Shown: positions 2,306 through 20,815 of the stretch, in pieces
Layout of the letters: each line of letters begins with the position of its first letter
How positions within the stretch are numbered: position 1 is the stretch's first letter
Virus record (IMG/VR): IMGVR_UViG_3300036715_002842
Location: 32,001-96,000 of that record
Source: a virus
Direction: 5' to 3' (one strand)
DNA length: 64,000 bases
The notes under the pieces: generated by a model
What the model was told of the DNA's origin: nothing
Seen by the model: only the letters and a program-made list of their open reading frames with translations
The model's database searches: none
Position numbers and translations under genes: made by a program

Positions 2306-2587
2306 TGGTGCGCCCGGCCGGAATCGAACCGGCACGCTCTTACGAACAACAGATTTTCATCCTACTTCATGTTGCCATGACCGTTTCCGTTGTAGGCTGG
2401 ACTATCCCTTGACCTTATCCGAGGACTTAGGCCCCCACCGTCTAGTCTCTACACCTTCCTATTTCTAGGCTTGGCTCGGGATTGTCCTAAGGAGTTTCCC
2501 CGAATTTGATGGGATTCACGCTGGAGGTTTCCGACCCAGGTGCTCAAATCATAAGTCTGTGGCGTCTACCAGTTCCGCCACGGGCGC
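2306..2587 (-). tRNA. tRNA-Leu(UAA), split by a group I intron (exons 2553-2587 and 2306-2357)
   Basis: Joining ...CAGACTT to AAAATCTG... restores the loop CT-TAA-AA. Long variable arm and CCA. Confidence 0.92.
2358..2552 (-). mobile_element. Group I self-splicing intron (IC3-like, 195 nt, no ORF)
   Basis: Starts after U and ends in G. Core motifs CAAATTCGGGGAAAC, GTAGAGACTAGACGG and AAGGGATAGTCC. Inserted U^AA in the anticodon, as in cyanobacterial and plastid tRNA-Leu introns. Confidence 0.92.
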
Positions 2588-2939: not shown

Positions 2940-3308
2940 TGGTGGAGGTGGGGGAAATCGAATCCCCGTCCGAAAAGCTTCAGAAGGTAATTCATTCACA
3001 GGCTTAGTTCGAATCTAGTGACCTCTGTGGAGGATCGAACAACTCCAATCGAGGACTTGTTCCTTTGTCTCAACTGGAAGCCAGGAACACTCTTCCAATC
3101 CAGTTTATCTCTTCACCTCAGCAGGACGAATCCACCCTCGGATCTGATGCAACTAGGCTACTAAACGATCACCTAGAGGTTGCTGCTTACGCAGCCTGGA
3201 GAAAACGATCGTTTTCGGCAGTTGTGTTTGTTGGGCTTTTTAGGAGGCCAGCCCACCTCCGCCTGCACTACACTCCGGATTAGCCATCCGTCGAAACCTG
3301 GCACCCCC
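2940..3308 (-). ncRNA. ssrA: tmRNA, tag peptide (A)AENDRFLQAA* at 3187-3219
   Basis: 5' GGGGGTG...TTCGAC and 3' GGACGGGGATTCGATTTCCCCCACCTCCACCA with G3-U70. Internal resume frame ends Ala-Ala-TAA. Confidence 0.96.
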
Positions 3309-3684: not shown

Positions 3685-4524
3685 CAGCTAGTGCACTAGC
3701 GTCAACAAGCCCGGATGTGGGTCTAGAACTCCACGGGGCTTGCAGGGAACTGATTGGTGGTAGCCCGATCCTCTGCTACTGAGCAAGTTGACCGGCACCT
3801 CATCGGGATGACGACCAACTGGCACCGAAGTGCACCACGGGGCTTGCAGGGAACTGATTGGTGGTAGCCCGATCCTCTGCTACTGAGCAAGTTGACCGGC
3901 ACCTCATCGGGATGACGACCAACTGGCACCGAAGTGCACCAAAGAACTACTTCACTCCCTCCTTTCTCCGGAGCAGCTCGAACTTCGCTGCCGCGGCCAG
4001 AAGGGATCCTGACTGAACCACCGCCTGCAACTGCGAGACGGTCATCCTACGCACGCTCTCTGCGTGCTTGCTTGATTGTGCCATGGGGCACCTCCTTCCA
4101 ACAAGTTGTTGGAAGGTCTTACGTGTCTGCGTACCTCATCGTTGCTCCTTTTGGAAAAGTGGAAGGATCGGGTTCGGTGTTATTTCACCCTCCAGGTCGT
4201 GTAACGTCCTAGGGAAGTCCCACCCGATTTCTTGAAGATATTTGGTTGGGGATTGGTGGCCACCGCACCCCAACCTACCTGTCGGTCCTATTGCCGTGGA
4301 TCGTTCATTCCCAACCTCCACGAGGAGTAGGTCCTTTTCGTCCCTGTTGGCAGCGACCGGTCTGTGCCGGGCTCACCGCTAGTTCTGTGGAGTCAGGGCT
4401 CCAGACATCCCGAGGGGAATTTGCACGGGACGATCTTGTGTTACAGAAAGGTACGAGTAGGAGTTCGCAAAGCTCCATTCTCCACTCATTGCGGAGATCC
4501 TGCACTTGGAGGTGATACTCGTAA
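3685..4524 (-). ncRNA. Candidate large structured ncRNA B (~730-840 nt)
   Basis: No credible ORF. Many perfect helices, e.g. 4452-4459/4516-4523, 4094-4103/4107-4116 and 4051-4067. Lies inside the tRNA operon. Confidence 0.55.
3731..3941. repeat. Exact tandem duplication of a 104-bp unit
   Basis: 3731-3834 is identical to 3835-3938. Confidence 0.95.
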
Positions 4525-14897: not shown

Positions 14898-15153
14898 AAG
14901 ATTTCTCTACCCCCTCTGGGCTATTTGCCCGGATAATTGAGTCCAAGATCCATCAAGGATGACTCGATGCTGGTCACCACCTTAGGCACTTTCAGAAACC
15001 CGTGTAAAATAACGGAGATTCGAGGTACCACGGGTCAAATGGTGGTTGGTATTCTATCCGTTAAGAGTATTACTTTCTACCATTTGAGGAAAGTTCTAAA
15101 GGGCAATTTTCTGGGTGACTTTGCATTTTCAAAGTTCCTCAAAAAATTGAGCC

Positions 15154-15181
15154 TTGATTTTTCTTCGAGACCCGGTAAATT
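15154..15181 (+). promoter_or_regulatory. Sigma70-like promoter
   Basis: TTGATT-N16-TAAATT upstream of 15252. Confidence 0.5.
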
Positions 15182-15251
15182 AGTAGTATATGTTCCCCAG
15201 AGGCCCCGGCTCCCCCACCTTCTCTACTGCCCCACTTTCTAGAGGTGCTTA

Positions 15252-16343
15252 ATGCGCTTGCTGATGTTCCGGTCTCAACTCACACCTCAGGGGATAACAT
15301 TCGTACCTCGTGAGGGTGAGCCGGCGCGATATAGCATCTTCCAGGACATCCACGACTACATCAAGATGAGCACTGAGAGTCTTCTCCATCCTCAGGCGGC
15401 GGTCGATCTGGTCATGGACAGCATCGCTCTACGTATCCTGCACCTGCCTCAGGCTCCGGACCACAAGGAGATCTACAGCAGTCAGTGCACCATCCGTAAG
15501 ACCAATGCGGATACCGGGAACGAGTGGTATGAGAAGACCCGGGACTTCAAAAACAAGTTTATGTATTGCATCAACTTCAACCGTATATCTCGTGCAGCGG
15601 AAGAAGCGATTGACAATCCGAAGAAGACCCTCATCTCTATTGCCAGCTTCTGGGATGTTTCCGAATACGAACTGGAACAGATTCTGAACTGGTATTACGA
15701 AACCGGACAGCAGCTCTACGGTGCCAAGGACCAGCGCCCTGAGTGGTGGGGGCAGCGCATTGATGAGGTTGCCCGCTACAAGGCTCTGGAATTTGAGTTC
15801 GTCAAGCAGGTGAACAAGAAACTGGCTACCCCGGCCTTCAGCTACCTCGTGGACTTCTACGAGTCCAGAGAATCCATCGTCCAGGACTTGATGCGAGAAG
15901 CCTGGCGCGCAGTTCTGGATACTTCCCACAAGCCGGAGCTTGATACCCTTCGCATGGGTAAGACCTACATCAATACGGTCATCCATCACGTGGCCCAGAG
16001 CTACACCAAGCACCATGGGAAGCAGGCTTACAACAAGCAGAACGATACTTACGAGACCATCGAGTTCTCTCTTCTGAGTGAACCGGACATGGATGAGTCC
16101 AAGCACTTCTTCCTGGCCCACGAGGTAAGTGAGTATCACGAAATGGAAGTCTTCCATACCCTCGACAAGGTTCTGGCTGACAATGAGATGACCCTGGTGC
16201 GGGTCCTCACTGGTGATCTGGAGAGTCCGGAATTCGAGAGTTACGCCTCGGGAATGTCCAGTCGTAGGATTGCGGCCTTCACCTTCTTCAAGGTGGACGC
16301 TGAGAACCTGCGGGACAAGTTCGGATACCTGTTCCACAGCTAA
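15252..16343 (+). CDS. Putative divergent sigma-factor-like protein
   Basis: ESIVQDLMREAWRAV resembles sigma region 2 and TLDKVLADNEMTLVRVL resembles the start of region 4. Confidence 0.45.
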   Translation: MRLLMFRSQLTPQGITFVPREGEPARYSIFQDIHDYIKMSTESLLHPQAAVDLVMDSIALRILHLPQAPDHKEIYSSQCTIRKTNADTGNEWYEKTRDFKNKFMYCINFNRISRAAEEAIDNPKKTLISIASFWDVSEYELEQILNWYYETGQQLYGAKDQRPEWWGQRIDEVARYKALEFEFVKQVNKKLATPAFSYLVDFYESRESIVQDLMREAWRAVLDTSHKPELDTLRMGKTYINTVIHHVAQSYTKHHGKQAYNKQNDTYETIEFSLLSEPDMDESKHFFLAHEVSEYHEMEVFHTLDKVLADNEMTLVRVLTGDLESPEFESYASGMSSRRIAAFTFFKVDAENLRDKFGYLFHS

Positions 16344-16826: not shown

Positions 16827-17105
16827 CTAACTAGCGAGCGGCAGCTTTTCAATTTCTGCCATGAATGAAGGTGGGGTTGTGAAAGCTGCCGCTCGAGGTA
16901 TCTTAAAGTACGGATCGGTAAATCCGATGGCACCTTCAGAGATGGCATCCTTAATAAGGAACCGTGGAGTGTCCAGGATGACCAGAGTTTCGTTCTTCCA
17001 CTCTTCCGGATACTCTAGAACGAACTGAGCAATAGCGTGCCCAGCTTGAGACATCTTTTGTCCGAAAGAAAGTTTTTCGTCGATCAGAATGTAGAGCTTA
17101 GTCAT
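16827..17105 (-). CDS. Pth2-like peptidyl-tRNA hydrolase
   Basis: KLYILIDEKLSFGQKMSQAGHA, WKNETLVIL, FTDP and C-terminal KLPL match the phage Pth2-type pattern. GAGG RBS before ATG 17105. Confidence 0.75.
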   Translation of the reverse strand: MTKLYILIDEKLSFGQKMSQAGHAIAQFVLEYPEEWKNETLVILDTPRFLIKDAISEGAIGFTDPYFKIPRAAAFTTPPSFMAEIEKLPLAS

Positions 17106-17409
17106 CGCTTTCCTCGTCTTCATCGTTCTTCTTGATGAGATAGGGTTTGAGAGGGTCCATATAAATGACCCCATCCTTCTTGAACGCTTCCTCGATTGCA
17201 GACATGGGAAACTTGAAAGTGTAATAGTTGTCGTTACAACTGTAAGAACAACGGCAAGGATTCACTTCCCGAATATTCGCGATAAGATGGTCACCCTCCA
17301 TTCGAAATCCCTGCAACCTAAAGTTGCTGAAGAGCTTGGAGTGATAGAAGGCGTCCTTGAGCTTCTGTTCAAACTTCTTCGTGGCTTGAAGGGTTTCGGT
17401 GTAAGACAT
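17098..17409 (-). CDS. Hypothetical protein
   Basis: GGAG RBS before ATG 17409; overlaps the Pth2-like start. Confidence 0.65.
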   Translation of the reverse strand: MSYTETLQATKKFEQKLKDAFYHSKLFSNFRLQGFRMEGDHLIANIREVNPCRCSYSCNDNYYTFKFPMSAIEEAFKKDGVIYMDPLKPYLIKKNDEDEESDD

Positions 17410-17499
17410 TGGAATTCTCCACAAGTTGTAAAAGTTGATTGACAAACCGGATATGCAGCTCCGTTAACATCCTCTTCAAAGGCTTGCTGTCTAACCTCT

Positions 17500-17673
17500 T
17501 CAGATTGTGGGATGGTAATCCTTTCCAGCAATCTTTACCCAGTTTGACATTCCAATCAAGAGGTGACCGTGCTGAGAAGGGGAGAAGGGGACTAGCCCCT
17601 TCCCATCACAGTGCAGACTTGGCTTAGACGATTCGAAGACCGTCCGGCAACCAAGACAGATCCACTCTTTCAT
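17500..17673 (-). CDS. Small Cys-containing protein (57 aa, not in the ORF track)
   Basis: TGATG coupling to the upstream gene; MKEWICLGCRTVFESSKPSLHCDGKG... Confidence 0.5.
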   Translation of the reverse strand: MKEWICLGCRTVFESSKPSLHCDGKGLVPFSPSQHGHLLIGMSNWVKIAGKDYHPTI

Positions 17674-18119
17674 CACTTCCCCTCTTGCATGTCGAGGAGG
17701 ATCTGCGTACTCAGACCCTGCTGGAAGTCCAGAGTCTCCTTACGGAAACGCTTCTTCTCTTCCCAAGCGGCGATGTCCTCAGCAATCATTTCCTTCCATT
17801 CCGCGAGCTGGCGCTGAGAATAGTGGTCGGCTTGCTTGTGGAAGTAAGAACGGCTGGGATTCCGGTTGGGCTCGATCTGCTCGAGGGTACGTCCACGGAG
17901 AAGGCAGTAAGCGATGTGCTTCGCTCTCCAATTCTGATCGTCGCAGCTGTAGAAGTTCTCGGGCTTGATTGCCAGGAGCTTGGCGCGAAGTTCTTCCTGT
18001 TGCTCCCCGGGAATGGAAGGCTTGAAGGTGGCATCGTAACGCCGTTCCCAATGCCTGCAAGCCACTTCGTGCTTGAGCTCTGCCTTGATGGTTGCGATCA
18101 GTTCTTTGTAAGTGGTCAT
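17673..18119 (-). CDS. Phage protein of unknown function (RAKHIAYCLLRGRTLEQIE motif)
   Basis: GGAG RBS. I recall this motif from phage proteins found near Pth2-like genes, but that recollection is unverified. Confidence 0.75.
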   Translation of the reverse strand: MTTYKELIATIKAELKHEVACRHWERRYDATFKPSIPGEQQEELRAKLLAIKPENFYSCDDQNWRAKHIAYCLLRGRTLEQIEPNRNPSRSYFHKQADHYSQRQLAEWKEMIAEDIAAWEEKKRFRKETLDFQQGLSTQILLDMQEGK

Positions 18120-18121
18120 TA

Positions 18122-18173
18122 GATTCTCCGAAATTTGAAAAGTTTGAGAAAAGGTTTTCGAATTTGGAGAATC
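18122..18173 (-). promoter_or_regulatory. RBS-sequestering hairpin
   Basis: GATTCTCC (18166-18173) pairs with GGAGAATC (18122-18129), which contains the RBS of the 148-aa gene. Further pairing is possible inside the loop region. Confidence 0.7.
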
Positions 18174-18198
18174 ACTAAGGTGGGCGGTTCTACGTCAT
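18172..18198 (-). other. Leader minigene 2: ATG ACG TAG (readthrough MT*NRPP then TAG TGA)
   Basis: AAGGAG RBS 6 nt upstream of the ATG. Confidence 0.7.
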
Positions 18199-18219
18199 CG
18201 TAGGCTCCTTTACGAACAG

Positions 18220-18260
18220 AAAAAACCCAACAGAGGCTGCTGGGCAGCTGATCCGTTGGG
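18220..18260 (-). terminator. Intrinsic terminator/attenuator in the leader
   Basis: CCCAACGGA/TCTGTTGGG stem with an inner GCTGC/GCAGC hairpin, followed by T6. Confidence 0.75.
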
Positions 18261-18320
18261 GAGGAAGTGTTCTTGCGAACACAGATTTTTGTGGTGTGGC
18301 AAAACTTTGGAGCCGCGAAT

Positions 18321-18329
18321 CTACTTCAT
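18321..18329 (-). other. Leader minigene 1: ATG AAG TAG (readthrough open to TAA at 18210-18212)
   Basis: GAGGGA RBS 7 nt upstream; 36 further sense codons span the terminator. Confidence 0.65.
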
Positions 18330-18342
18330 GGTCTTGTCCCTC

Positions 18343-18380
18343 AAATGGTTGGTACTACCCAAAATGGTTGGTACTACCCA
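18343..18380. repeat. Two tandem copies of AAATGGTTGGTACTACCCA (19 bp)
   Basis: Seen directly, immediately downstream of the predicted transcription start. Confidence 0.85.
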
Positions 18381-18387
18381 AAGACTA

Positions 18388-18416
18388 ATTATAACCCCGG
18401 ATCTTTCGTTTGCCAA
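18388..18416 (-). promoter_or_regulatory. Sigma70-type promoter of the Pth2 operon
   Basis: TTGGCA-N17-TATAAT. Confidence 0.75.
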
Positions 18417-18480: not shown

Positions 18481-19518
18481 TCATGGCTGACTCCCAGAAG
18501 TAAGGACGTTTCGTTCCATGGGCTGACCGTGCATCCAGTGTTTCACGGTCTGGACATGGGAGGCCCGGACGAACTTCCCAACCTTGACCCGAAACTCAGA
18601 GAAGGGGAATGCCTCGGCCACCCGGACCACATAGCCCTCCTGGCGATCCCATTTGCGCTTGTCCCACAAGGCGCGGATGGCCTTTTCGTCATAGATTCCG
18701 TCGTAGAGTACGGGAACAGGAGTAATCCCCAACAGGGCAAACCATTCCAGCGTCTCGTCCCAGGGGAGGCAGATGTTCCGGTCATCCCAGATGGAGAACC
18801 CAAGCAGGTAGCTGGGAAGGCCGTCGTAGCCGATGGAATGCTTGGCGTAGAGGTTTTCGCCGCACACTCGCCATCCTTCCGGGATGTCCATACGGATCTG
18901 GGACCAGAATTGCTTGACCCAGTTCCGGCTGGGGTGACTGCGCCCATCCAGGCTCCGAGCGTGGATGTGATCCTGGTAGAGGGACGTGTTTTCTCCGTCC
19001 ATTTTCTCGGTAACGATCACCCGCTTCCCTGCGAGGGCTGCGGTGGAATCCATCATTCGGTCGTCGTCGTTCATTCCCTCCGACCATGGCAGATGGTGGG
19101 TCCTGGGATACTTGACCCAGTGGGTGAATAGGCTAAGAACGCCGCCAATGGCGAGCACCTTCTGAACGCTCTCGTCATGGAACAACTCCCCCTTGAGGCG
19201 CTGGCCATTGGGGAGGATGGGATTCCCCCACTTGTCATAAGGCTGGTCCGCGTAGAGATGTGGTGGGAGCAAAGATTTGGTGATCCCGCAGGCGTTACGA
19301 ACATCCTCGGTGGAGATCTCTGTGGTTTCGCACCGCATGTGGTGATCGCCACAAACGGAAGCGCCGTTGTCGAGGTAGTAGCCTCCGTCCGGCCACAGTC
19401 TGCGTTCCAGGATGTGGTGGGCGTCCGCAGCAGGTTCCCCGCAGAAGACACAGCGGCCCTTGGCGCGAGCAAACACGGCCTCGCGGAAAGCGTCTCTGGT
19501 TAGCAGCAGGGCGTTCAT
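18481..19518 (-). CDS. HNH domain fused to an ATP-dependent RNA ligase (Rnl2-like)
   Basis: N-terminal CVFC...DAHHI...NGASVCGDHH HNH motif. KYPRTHHLPWS, TEKMDGEN (motif I), GENLYAKHSI, EGYVVR and KFVR ligase motifs. Confidence 0.88.
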   Translation of the reverse strand: MNALLLTRDAFREAVFARAKGRCVFCGEPAADAHHILERRLWPDGGYYLDNGASVCGDHHMRCETTEISTEDVRNACGITKSLLPPHLYADQPYDKWGNPILPNGQRLKGELFHDESVQKVLAIGGVLSLFTHWVKYPRTHHLPWSEGMNDDDRMMDSTAALAGKRVIVTEKMDGENTSLYQDHIHARSLDGRSHPSRNWVKQFWSQIRMDIPEGWRVCGENLYAKHSIGYDGLPSYLLGFSIWDDRNICLPWDETLEWFALLGITPVPVLYDGIYDEKAIRALWDKRKWDRQEGYVVRVAEAFPFSEFRVKVGKFVRASHVQTVKHWMHGQPMERNVLTSGSQP

Positions 19519-19639
19519 TGGGTGGTTCCTTTCGAGTTGGATTCATTACATTTCAGACGCTACCGTATGGCGTACCTGTGGGTGTATCCCCTTGAATTCT
19601 GGCTCGTAGTGTTTCAAAGCGGTTTCACTCTTAAAAAAG

Positions 19640-19711
19640 TCCCCACGGTGGTAGTCGAAACCACGACACAGTGTTTTAGAAGCACCTGCTCTACCGTTGA
19701 GCTACGTGGGG
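19640..19711 (-). tRNA. Amber-suppressor tRNA (anticodon CUA), CCA not encoded
   Basis: CCCCACG TA GCTC AACGGTA GAGC A GGTGC TTCTAAA ACACT GTGTC GTGGT TTCGACT ACCAC CGTGGGG A. Canonical spacing places CUA at 34-36. Confidence 0.85.
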
Positions 19712-19730: not shown

Positions 19731-19758
19731 AGAATAACCTTGAATTTTGAATTGTCAA
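19731..19758 (-). promoter_or_regulatory. Sigma70-type promoter of the suppressor tRNA
   Basis: TTGACA-N16-TATTCT, about 20 nt upstream of the tRNA. Confidence 0.75.
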
Positions 19759-19825: not shown

Positions 19826-20815
19826 CTATTCATCTGAGTGCGCCAGGGCAGCGAACAGGCACCCCTTCGCGATAGCCTTCAGAGGATCCTCAGCACGAAC
19901 TACCTTGCCAATCTTGATGGGGAGGTTCTGCGCCTTGAGAGCCTCTTCGAACAGTTCGATGAACCCGCCGGGAAGAGAGGTTCCACCTGCGACTGCGATC
20001 TTGGGCGGCTTCTGGAAGTCTGGTAGCTTCGCCATGCCAAGGAGTTTGTCCTTGATTTGCTTGGCTACGTACTCCAACATCGCCTTGTAGTAGTACGAAA
20101 TGGCTTCCTCGGTCTGATCCTTGGGCTTGCGGAGATCAATGATCCCCTCCTTTGCGAGCATAGCCTTGACCGTGGAGATACCCAGAGAGGTGGAAACGTT
20201 CTTGTCAATGTAGTCACCGGAACGGGCTACGGAGAAGTTGAAGGCTTCCACACTCAATTGTGCGCAGCAGACATTGCACATGCCAGCGCCCCACGAAACA
20301 CCAAAGCCAGAAAGATTGTCCTCGAGGAGTTCACTGTAAATGACCGACAGACCTTCATTGAGTGGTACTGGAGTGTAACCCATGTCGGTTAGGATCTTGT
20401 TGAACACATTCGAGTGGTAAACTGCATTGAACTCCTGATCGACTGGATCCCCTGGGACGGAGTAGACCACCTTTTCTTTCTTGGTGGCAGGAGCCCCAAG
20501 GGACTCTTTGATGATCGCCTGGATGATTGGCAGCGCCTTAATCTCATGGGGATTGAGAACACCTTGCGACATAGGTCGCTTGGGCTCACTGTTGAAAGCG
20601 CTAGCGAGCTCCAGTGCCTGCTGACCTAAAGCAGAAATTTCCCCCTCAAGTTCCACGTAAGGTGCACCCACCTTCTTGAGCATCGATTTTACGAAGGGGG
20701 ATTTCTCTACTGGTACGAAGATATTGCGGAAAGCTTTGTACTCGAAGCTCTCCCCATCTGCACCAACCCTCGCAGCTACGATATTTCCAGTTCCCAAATC
20801 TAGTCCACAGGGCAT
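19826..20815 (-). CDS. Actin-like ATPase (MreB/FtsA/ParM superfamily)
   Basis: GLDLGTGN (phosphate 1), LNEG, SWGAGMCNV (phosphate 2), VAGGTS (adenosine) and DPLKAIAKG. Confidence 0.88.
   Translation of the reverse strand: MPCGLDLGTGNIVAARVGADGESFEYKAFRNIFVPVEKSPFVKSMLKKVGAPYVELEGEISALGQQALELASAFNSEPKRPMSQGVLNPHEIKALPIIQAIIKESLGAPATKKEKVVYSVPGDPVDQEFNAVYHSNVFNKILTDMGYTPVPLNEGLSVIYSELLEDNLSGFGVSWGAGMCNVCCAQLSVEAFNFSVARSGDYIDKNVSTSLGISTVKAMLAKEGIIDLRKPKDQTEEAISYYYKAMLEYVAKQIKDKLLGMAKLPDFQKPPKIAVAGGTSLPGGFIELFEEALKAQNLPIKIGKVVRAEDPLKAIAKGCLFAALAHSDE

What the first reader, a model, noticed from the sequence alone, without database searches (positions are those of the whole stretch)
18210..18416. 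First amber gate: Met-Lys-UAG minigene whose readthrough frame spans an intrinsic terminator
Seen: TTGGCA-N17-TATAAT promoter, a 19-bp tandem repeat, then GAGGGA-N7-ATG AAG TAG. Past the TAG the frame stays open for 36 codons (IRGSKVLPHH...LLGFFCS), crosses the whole terminator (18220-18260), and ends at a TAA overlapping the RBS of the second minigene. Known: a trailing ribosome prevents terminator folding, and two-codon minigenes (lambda bar type, notably with Lys codons) cause peptidyl-tRNA drop-off and are Pth-sensitive. Inference: transcriptional attenuation relieved by amber readthrough. Alternatively the minigene senses peptidyl-tRNA-Lys or Pth status, which also fits the downstream Pth2.
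Basis: partly seen in the sequence, partly recalled or inferred. Interest (0 to 1): 0.88.

Follow-up and report, generated by a model that had tools for sequence, protein, structure and literature searches.

The report
Amber-stop-gated leader of phage Pth2 operon
A phage with the normal genetic code puts a two-codon mini-gene ending in the stop codon UAG, then a transcription terminator, in front of an operon with a peptidyl-tRNA-hydrolase-like gene, next to its own UAG-reading tRNA; distant phages share this design, so the operon is probably expressed only when that tRNA overrides the stop.

Summary

The mini-gene is not chance. A relative whose downstream protein is only 38% identical (L055) has the same order: -10 box, SD-Met-Thr-UAG, terminator, SD-Met-Leu-UAG, SD-hiding hairpin, gene. 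About 0.002 UAG mini-genes are expected per 200-nt leader.

The link to amber suppression is supported independently:
- A tRNA(CUA) sits beside the same gene pair in this phage and in a very distant one (L184).
- XacN1-type jumbo phages, which carry tRNA(CUA), start their Pth2-domain gene with in-frame ATG-AAG(-AAG)-TAG.
- Cluster C mycobacteriophages show [A/G]TG-TAG-GTG at the Pth gene, with tRNA(CUA) next door.
- A phage with a Pth2 gene but no tRNA(CUA) has no gate.

Not shown: that read-through relieves termination. The open frame alone is not significant (P about 0.17 and 0.15). Published data also show that terminators within the first 100 bp of an ORF still work. A purely translational relay is a serious rival.

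This scan has already noted amber-gated Pth2 genes with suppressor tRNAs on other DNA. I found no paper describing them.

The parts
19731..19758 (-). sigma70-like promoter of the suppressor tRNA (TTGACA-N16-TATTCT)
19639..19711 (-). solitary tRNA with anticodon CUA (amber suppressor), about 15 kb from the main tRNA array, followed by a T-run
   Evidence: ARAGORN; Rfam tRNA 57.7 bits; sequence
18481..19518 (-). RNA ligase gene with a Cys/His-rich N-terminal region, lying between the tRNA and the leader
   Evidence: Pfam RNA_ligase E 3e-32. Its relatives in 54 phage loci lack this leader
18388..18416 (-). leader promoter TTGGCA-N17-TATAAT
   Evidence: 11 of 12 consensus matches
18345..18382 (-). 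two exact 19-bp tandem repeats at the start of the transcript, each with a GGTAnTACC palindrome. Operator-like; role unknown; absent from L055
18337..18342 (-). Shine-Dalgarno sequence GAGGGA of mini-gene 1. In the predicted fold it pairs with UCCUCC just 5' of the terminator
18321..18329 (-). mini-gene 1: ATG AAG TAG (Met-Lys-amber)
   Evidence: The same nine bases start the Pth2-domain gene of XacN1 and RAS14
18210..18320 (-). read-through frame: 36 sense codons then TAA, spanning the terminator. The TAA abuts the SD of mini-gene 2
18267..18282 (-). small 6-bp hairpin between mini-gene 1 and the terminator; a possible RNA polymerase pause site (inference only)
18220..18260 (-). intrinsic terminator: hairpin 18260-18226 plus U-run 18225-18220
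18172..18210 (-). second gate: AAGGAG, 6 nt, ATG ACG TAG (18198-18190), then four codons, TAG (18177-18175) and TGA (18174-18172)
18122..18173 (-). long hairpin whose 3' arm holds the SD (GGAG) of the 148-aa gene
17673..18119 (-). 148-aa all-helical protein of unknown fold (p148), the conserved partner of the Pth2-like gene
   Evidence: pairing seen in L055, L184 and the contig of P0007/P0010
17500..17676 (-). 58-aa protein with a CxxC motif
   Evidence: no Pfam hit
17098..17445 (-). 115-aa (103 aa from the SD-preceded ATG at 17409) protein of unknown function
   Evidence: no Pfam hit
16827..17105 (-). 92-aa Pth2-like protein (peptidyl-tRNA hydrolase 2 fold); its start overlaps the stop of the preceding gene
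   Evidence: model pLDDT 87.6. Foldseek ranks 1-11 are PTH2-fold entries (Bit1, MJ0051, PH1539, AF2095, TA0108, S. solfataricus Pth), best E 7.5e-4, TM about 0.6. No Pfam hit

Best explanation
The stretch is the first stage of a leader that senses amber suppression and controls an operon made of p148, two small proteins and a Pth2-like enzyme.

Proposed mechanism:
1. Host RNA polymerase starts at the sigma70-like promoter. A ribosome loads on the strong SD and makes Met-Lys.
2. At codon 3, release factor 1 competes with the phage's own tRNA(CUA), encoded 1.3 kb upstream.
3. If RF1 wins, the ribosome leaves 60 nt before the terminator, the hairpin forms and transcription ends at 18220.
4. If the tRNA wins, the ribosome reads 36 more codons straight through the hairpin and U-run, and stops at a TAA that touches the SD of the second Met-Thr-UAG mini-gene.
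5. That ribosome keeps the terminator from forming (pyrBI-type attenuation). It also delivers ribosomes to the second gate, where another UAG read-through carries a ribosome into the hairpin that hides the SD of the 148-aa gene.

The result would be operon output that rises steeply with UAG read-through.

Shown: the anatomy; its conservation in a distant relative; the recurrent link between tRNA(CUA), an early UAG and Pth2-like genes.

Inferred: that the tRNA is made and charged; that read-through happens; that it acts on termination rather than only on translation.
For: (1) Conserved leader design. L055's downstream protein is 38% identical to p148. L055 has a -10 box, SD-ATG ACG TAG, a 16-bp terminator hairpin with U-run, SD-ATG CTT TAG, then alternative hairpins around the main SD. 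Its post-UAG frame stays open across the terminator, runs in frame into mini-gene 2, and ends at a TGA overlapping the main ATG.

(2) Rarity. About 0.002 SD-ATG-NNN-TAG units are expected per 200-nt leader; two are seen in each leader, and all four end in TAG.

(3) tRNA(CUA) lies next to the p148-like/Pth2-like pair in this phage and in L184, a very divergent 146-kb phage-like contig.

(4) In-frame early UAG in XacN1-type phages. XacN1, Xoo-sp13, RAS14 and CM1 start their Pth2-domain gene with SD-ATG AAG (AAG) TAG in frame. In RAS14 and CM1 conserved N-terminal residues follow the TAG with no other start codon. Xoo-sp13 and RAS14 carry tRNA(CUA). XacN1 does too, and its authors could name no target for it (PMC5852040).

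(5) Cluster C mycobacteriophages have [A/G]TG TAG GTG seven bases after a -10 box at the Pth gene, with tRNA(cta) next door.

(6) Negative control. Asteriusvirus ph0011 has a PTH2 gene, but no early TAG and no tRNA(CUA).

(7) A ribosome ending close to a terminator represses it in E. coli (PMC4824070).

(8) The genome uses the standard code, so the UAG is a real stop unless suppressed.
Against: - Only two leaders of this type could be read, because the tool that fetches contigs for the other homologues was closed.
- The open frame across the terminator is not significant on its own (P 0.17 and 0.15). In the window all three frames are open there.
- PMC4824070 reports that terminators within the first 100 bp of a coding region still terminate efficiently, because the ribosome lags behind the polymerase. 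Here the U-run is about 105 nt from the ATG, and about 70 nt in L055. Coupling would therefore need a polymerase pause, which is not demonstrated.
- L184 has the gene pair and the tRNA(CUA) but no gate.
- The amino acid carried by the tRNA is unknown.
- TAG ends about 20 of about 92 ordinary genes of this phage, so strong suppression would have a cost.
Confidence: 0.42

Rival explanations
1. Translational relay only. The UAG mini-genes are real amber gates, but the terminator is constitutive and leaky; it may also end upstream transcripts. On full-length transcripts, a ribosome that reads UAG1 melts the structured leader and terminates at the TAA beside SD2. It re-initiates at mini-gene 2, reads UAG2 and opens the SD-hiding hairpin. 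Control would be on translation, not on transcription.
For: - The TAA of frame 1 abuts SD2, 11 nt before ATG2.
- In L055 frame 1 runs in frame into mini-gene 2, and after UAG2 ends at a TGA overlapping the main ATG. The SD of mini-gene 2 is paired with sequence just after mini-gene 1.
- Terminators early in an ORF are not efficiently repressed by ribosomes (PMC4824070).
- XacN1-type and mycobacteriophage gates are purely translational.
Against: The order promoter-then-terminator is kept in both leaders. That is the hallmark of regulated termination and is unnecessary for a translational relay. A leaky terminator would waste most transcripts.
Confidence: 0.3
2. A sensor of RF1 or peptidyl-tRNA drop-off, with no suppressor tRNA involved. 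The two-codon mini-genes (lambda bar type) would report release-factor-1 activity or Pth capacity, and so adjust expression of the Pth2-like gene.
For: - Two-codon ORFs with strong SDs are the class known to provoke peptidyl-tRNA drop-off (background knowledge; PMC2490762 listed).
- The regulated operon encodes a Pth2-fold protein.
- UAG is read only by RF1.
Against: - A ribosome held at UAG1 would sit 60 nt (window) or 23 nt (L055) before the terminator stem and cannot touch it.
- Codon 2 is not conserved (Lys, Thr, Thr, Leu).
- This reading does not explain why tRNA(CUA) co-occurs with the gate in five lineages, nor why a phage without the tRNA lacks it.
- In RAS14 and CM1 the UAG lies inside a conserved ORF and must be read through.
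Confidence: 0.12
3. A short non-coding RNA, or simply the end of the upstream transcription unit. Promoter to terminator would give a RNA of about 165 nt with a job of its own, and the mini-gene would be incidental.
For: - Promoter followed by terminator defines a discrete unit of about 165 nt.
- The fold is more stable than shuffles (z -2.4 for the window, -6.1 for L055).
Against: - No Rfam match.
- No sequence conservation in 54 RNA-ligase loci.
- The features kept between the window and L055 are SD-ATG-NNN-TAG units and hairpins over SDs, which are translational signals.
Confidence: 0.08
4. A genuine 38-residue amber-containing micro-protein whose gene happens to overlap the terminator.
For: With UAG read, the frame gives a 38-residue product with its own SD.
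Against: The read-through peptides of the window and L055 share no similarity. That pattern is typical of leader peptides whose position matters, not their sequence.
Confidence: 0.05

Closest known systems
pyrBI-type and trp-type ribosome-mediated transcription attenuation
   Same: A promoter-proximal short ORF with an SD, an intrinsic terminator before the structural genes, and (as in pyrBI) a leader frame that runs through the terminator, so that a closely following ribosome blocks the hairpin.
   Different: The regulatory codon is a stop codon at position 3, not a run of hungry sense codons or a nucleotide-sensitive pause. The signal would be suppressor-tRNA activity. No antiterminator helix was identified. 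Coupling is unproven.
Stop-codon recoding in phages with suppressor tRNAs (TAG read as an amino acid, 'code 15'; bioRxiv 10.1101/2021.08.26.457843; PMC9523058)
   Same: A phage-encoded tRNA(CUA), with in-frame UAG used to hold back expression until the tRNA acts.
   Different: This genome keeps the standard code: TAG ends about 20 of about 92 genes and long genes have no internal TAG. The UAGs sit in two leader mini-genes of a single operon, not across the late genes.
prfB (RF2) autoregulation through an in-frame UGA at codon 26
   Same: An early in-frame stop codon whose fate (termination or continued decoding) sets expression of a translation-termination-related gene.
   Different: prfB uses a +1 frameshift and senses RF2. 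Here the event would be tRNA-mediated read-through of UAG, the product is a Pth2-like enzyme, and the stop lies in a separate leader.
Lambda bar mini-genes (two-codon ORFs toxic to pth-defective cells)
   Same: A strong SD, ATG, one sense codon and a stop; a link to peptidyl-tRNA hydrolase biology.
   Different: Toxicity of bar depends on tRNA sequestration through drop-off. Here the conserved feature is the TAG, not the sense codon, and the mini-genes sit in a structured leader of a Pth2-like operon.
Amber-gated Pth2-like genes with a suppressor tRNA, noted earlier by this scan on other DNA (e1-5815015, e1-5390905, e1-5786325, e1-933198)
   Same: A standard-code phage, a tRNA(CUA), an early UAG, and a Pth2-like gene as the gated product.
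   Different: Here the Pth2-like ORF itself has no UAG. The gate has moved into a two-stage leader, combined with an intrinsic terminator and an SD-hiding hairpin, and the first gated gene is the unknown p148.

Membership tests
Leader-peptide transcription attenuator | Short ORF with its own SD between the promoter and the structural genes | tested here: met
   same in L055
Leader-peptide transcription attenuator | Intrinsic terminator between the leader ORF start and the first structural gene | tested here: met
   window; L055
Leader-peptide transcription attenuator | Ribosome position decides between terminator and an alternative fold, or masks the terminator directly | tested here: inconclusive
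   The terminator lies inside the read-through frame. No antiterminator helix was found. The open frame is not significant. The kinetic caveat comes from PMC4824070.
Leader-peptide transcription attenuator | Termination responds to translation of the leader | not testable with these tools
Stop-codon-recoded phage (code 15) | Many genes with in-frame TAG, and TAG not used as a stop | tested here: not met
   The standard code gives 84% coding density; TAG ends about 20 of about 92 called genes; paired open frames joined by TAG lie antisense to long genes
Stop-codon-recoded phage (code 15) | Phage-encoded tRNA with anticodon CUA | tested here: met
Lambda bar-type mini-gene | SD, ATG, one sense codon, stop | tested here: met
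Lambda bar-type mini-gene | Toxic in Pth-deficient cells through peptidyl-tRNA drop-off | not testable with these tools
   Needs an experiment
PTH2 peptidyl-tRNA hydrolase (for the gated gene 16827-17105) | PTH2 fold | tested here: met
   Foldseek ranks 1-11 are PTH2-fold entries, best E 7.5e-4, probability 1.00, TM about 0.6. Only weak PDB profile hit: a peptidyl-tRNA hydrolase, E 0.22.
PTH2 peptidyl-tRNA hydrolase (for the gated gene 16827-17105) | Match to the Pfam PTH2 model | tested here: not met
   No Pfam family, even at E 10. The protein has 92 aa, against about 115 for canonical PTH2.
PTH2 peptidyl-tRNA hydrolase (for the gated gene 16827-17105) | Hydrolysis of peptidyl-tRNA | not testable with these tools
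   Needs an enzyme assay

The most novel reading that the evidence does not exclude
A natural two-stage riboregulator that reads the activity of a suppressor tRNA. Stage 1 would be a transcription attenuator whose leader peptide is interrupted by UAG at codon 3. Stage 2 would be a translational lock with a second UAG mini-gene. Together they would make the p148/Pth2-like operon a steep function of UAG read-through. This would give the 'orphan' amber-suppressor tRNAs of standard-code phages a defined target, and would show that a stop codon can serve as the sensing codon of an attenuator.
Probability: 0.4. Interest if true: 0.85.

Novelty: new variant of a known kind. Interest (0 to 1): 0.78.

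Why it matters
Many large phages that use the standard code carry an amber-suppressor tRNA with no known target; the XacN1 authors say so explicitly (PMC5852040). This locus and its counterparts offer a concrete target: a Pth2-like operon locked by early UAG codons.

If the first gate acts on termination, it would be the first attenuator whose sensing codon is a stop codon. It would be a natural circuit that measures read-through and answers with a tRNA-recycling enzyme. It is directly testable with simple reporters. It would also be a ready-made part for genetic-code engineering, giving expression conditional on a suppressor tRNA at both the transcriptional and the translational level.

The finding also exposes annotation errors. 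The RAS14 gene start is truncated, and a Myrna tRNA(CUA) is labelled tRNA-Ser.

Tried and rejected
- **Rfam:** no family matches the leader, at gathering or loose thresholds.
- **RNA-ligase loci:** BLASTN and nhmmer of the intergenic region against 54 such loci found nothing. Only one of the 54 has a tRNA(CUA) nearby, so the ligase is not part of the conserved design.
- **The 19-bp repeat:** it occurs nowhere else in the genome or in IMG/VR, and L055 lacks it. I could not assign it a role.
- **Whole-genome recoding:** rejected.
- **Searches for p148 relatives that found nothing:** GenBank phages, IMG/VR, the first metagenome scan and the first genome scan.
- **Pth2-like relatives in IMG/VR (L056-L066):** they lack p148 and the leader. 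Nine of the ten AT-rich loci L057-L066 (Lak-like by my reading) hold an in-frame TAG inside the Pth2-like gene.
- **p148 fold:** no convincing match with Foldseek or VIA-align (best Z 4.9, within helical-bundle noise), and no Pfam or PDB sequence hit.
- **A GTG AAG TAG at window 3955 (-):** it proved to be the ordinary end of a small ORF.
- **Literature:** searches for a prior description found none in the held library.

Full report
**Setting.** The window is bases 32001-96000 of a 105.6-kb virus record with 50% G+C. It holds a 12-gene tRNA array, a tmRNA and a group I intron at one end. A crude codon-usage gene call under the standard code covers 84% of the genome. TAG ends about 20 of about 92 genes, and the long open frames joined by a single TAG lie antisense to long genes. 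The phage is therefore not recoded.

**The observation.** The feature lies on the minus strand and is as described:
- promoter TTGGCA-N17-TATAAT, 18416-18388;
- two exact 19-bp repeats, 18382-18345, unique in the genome, each with a GGTAnTACC palindrome;
- GAGGGA, 7 nt, then ATG AAG TAG (18329-18321);
- 36 open codons ending at TAA 18212-18210;
- inside that frame, a terminator hairpin (18260-18226) and U-run (18225-18220).

The TAA abuts AAGGAG, 6 nt, ATG ACG TAG (18198-18190). Four codons later come TAG and TGA. Then a long hairpin (18173-18122) buries the SD of a 148-aa gene. Downstream lie a 58-aa CxxC protein, a 115-aa protein and a 92-aa protein. A solitary tRNA(CUA) with its own promoter lies 1.3 kb upstream (19711-19639), separated from the leader by an RNA-ligase gene.

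**Is it more than chance?** The open frame alone is not. Shuffling gives P = 0.17, and all three frames are open over the terminator. The mini-gene is. In 540 kb of unrelated phage loci I counted 9 SD-ATG-NNN-TAG units on two strands, so about 0.002 are expected per 200-nt leader.

The decisive datum is L055, a 1.3-kb metagenome contig whose homologue of the 148-aa protein is only 38% identical. Upstream of that gene it has, in order:
- an extended -10 box;
- an SD and ATG ACG TAG;
- a 16-bp hairpin with a U-run;
- an SD and ATG CTT TAG;
- a duplicated SD-containing segment with one complementary arm between the copies, giving mutually exclusive hairpins.

Its fold energy has z = -6.1 against shuffles. 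The frame after its first TAG stays open across the terminator (32 codons, P = 0.15). It runs in frame into the second mini-gene and, past the second TAG, ends at a TGA overlapping the main ATG. All four mini-genes end in TAG, while the sense codon varies (Lys, Thr, Thr, Leu). The read-through peptides are unrelated, as expected for leader peptides.

**The gated genes.** The 92-aa protein gives no Pfam hit. Its AlphaFold model (pLDDT 87.6) matches PTH2-fold structures at Foldseek ranks 1-11 (Bit1, MJ0051, PH1539, AF2095, TA0108, S. solfataricus Pth; best E 7.5e-4, TM about 0.6). The 148-aa protein is a confident all-helical model with no fold match. The two genes travel together: in L055, in the contig of P0007/P0010 and in L184.

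**The link to amber suppression.** Five independent lines point the same way.

1. L184, a 146-kb phage-like contig binned with a Cytophagales MAG, has a short p148 homologue and a Pth2-like gene followed 0.7 kb later by a tRNA(CUA). It has no gate, so the gate is not universal.

2. A tblastn search with the Pth2-like protein finds Lak megaphages, XacN1-type jumbo phages, E. coli Asteriusviruses and mycobacteriophages. Nine of ten AT-rich IMG/VR relatives (Lak-like by my reading) hold an in-frame TAG inside the gene.

3. In XacN1 the SD serves an upstream in-frame ATG AAG TAG, and the annotated ATG four codons later has no SD. Xoo-sp13 has ATG AAG AAG TAG at the same place. In RAS14 and CM1, ATG AAG TAG is followed in frame by seven codons and then by the conserved N-terminal residues, with no other start. 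The GenBank entry for RAS14 starts 24 codons late. Xoo-sp13 and RAS14 each encode a tRNA(CUA). XacN1 has two, and its authors report that they could not identify target genes (PMC5852040).

4. About 200 cluster C mycobacteriophage records have a 'peptidyl tRNA hydrolase' gene, and in every record listed or inspected a tRNA(cta) follows it directly. In ET08, DirtMonster, Tonenili, Alice, Myrna and ScoobyDoobyDoo the annotated GTG start is preceded in frame by [A/G]TG TAG, seven bases after a TTGACA-N17-TAnnnT promoter. This fits a leaderless mRNA with UAG as codon 2. It is less clean than the XacN1 case, because an SD-like GGAGG lies 7 nt before the annotated GTG.

5. Asteriusvirus ph0011 has a PTH2 gene with an ordinary overlapping start, and no tRNA(CUA) among its seven tRNAs.

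**Mechanism.** I consider it about 70% likely that mini-gene 1 is a selected UAG gate read by the phage tRNA. How the gate acts is less certain.

- the order promoter, leader ORF, terminator is conserved;
- the terminator lies inside the read-through frame in both leaders;
- a ribosome released at UAG1 is too far from the stem to matter (60 nt here, 23 nt in L055);
- ribosomes ending near a terminator are known to repress it (PMC4824070).

Against it:
- the same paper states that terminators within the first 100 bp of a coding region still work, because the ribosome lags behind the polymerase;
- I found no antiterminator helix, and a pause is only conjecture (hairpin 18282-18267).

A purely translational relay explains the adjacency of the TAA to SD2, the in-frame chaining in L055 and the simple in-frame gates of other phages equally well. 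I therefore give attenuation 0.42 and the relay 0.30. Sensing of RF1 or Pth without a suppressor gets 0.12, an unrelated small RNA 0.08 and a real micro-protein 0.05.

A plausible logic, by inference only, is demand-matched supply. Read-through of stop codons sends ribosomes into 3' regions and raises the load of stalled complexes and peptidyl-tRNA, so the hydrolase is made in proportion to read-through.

**Prior knowledge.** Searches of the held literature found stop-codon recoding in phages, RF2 autoregulation, bar mini-genes and attenuation. They found no description of an amber-gated Pth2 gene or leader. After I had derived the pattern, a look-up showed that this scan has noted amber-gated Pth2-like genes with suppressor tRNAs many times on other DNA: 410 notes in at least 248 genomes. 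One later check priced the observation at 85/100 and the bold reading at 20/100.

What is particular here is the leader form. The Pth2-like ORF is free of UAG, and two M-X-UAG mini-genes are combined with an intrinsic terminator and an SD-hiding hairpin in front of p148.

**Limits.** No read or RNA data were available. All functional statements are inferences from sequence.

Noticed in passing
window 3735-3945 (-): Two tandem copies of a structured element of about 107 nt, with GGTGCACTTCGGTGCC-type hairpins. They lie in the gap between tRNA-Arg and tRNA-Pro, just after a small ORF that ends in TAG. No Rfam match at the gathering threshold.
   Followed up: no
window 2377-2562 (-) and 2940-3308 (-): A group I intron (Rfam, 57.5 bits) and a phage-encoded tmRNA (tag AENDRFLQAA), both inside the tRNA array.
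   Followed up: no
window 19826-20815 (-): A 329-aa actin-like protein matching Pfam Volactin over its full length (E 2e-79), directly upstream of the tRNA(CUA).
   Followed up: partly
window 14937-15242 (+) and 15252-16343 (+): A 101-codon frame ending in TAG lies in frame with the next 363-aa gene, only three codons away. Amber suppression would fuse them. This may be chance.
   Followed up: no
L184 3775-3965 and 3967-4134: Between the Pth2-like gene and the tRNA(CUA) there is a TATAAT box followed by a structured RNA of about 190 nt, closed by a GCACGGC/GCCCGTGC helix and a T-run, with no Rfam match. After it comes a tRNA with a 97-nt insert in the anticodon loop (Rfam, 45 bits).
   Followed up: no
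L211 86-160 (RAS14, OP752703.1): Besides tRNA(CUA), RAS14 carries a tRNA that ARAGORN reads with anticodon UUA (ochre-suppressor-like).
   Followed up: no
L189 2441-2515 (RAS14) and L257 1161-1232 (Myrna): Likely annotation errors. WAX21615.1 of RAS14 starts at a GTG 24 codons after the ATG AAG TAG and so loses conserved residues. Myrna gene 86 is labelled tRNA-Ser, but ARAGORN reads anticodon CTA.
   Followed up: partly
L057-L066 (IMG/VR): AT-rich phage loci (Lak-like by my reading): nine of ten carry an in-frame TAG at the same place inside the Pth2-like gene, about codon 35, and one has TAA there.
   Followed up: partly
L001, L003, L004, L017, L042 and others: Relatives of the RNA ligase often sit inside or beside large tRNA arrays of jumbo phages, which fits a role in tRNA repair.
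   Followed up: no
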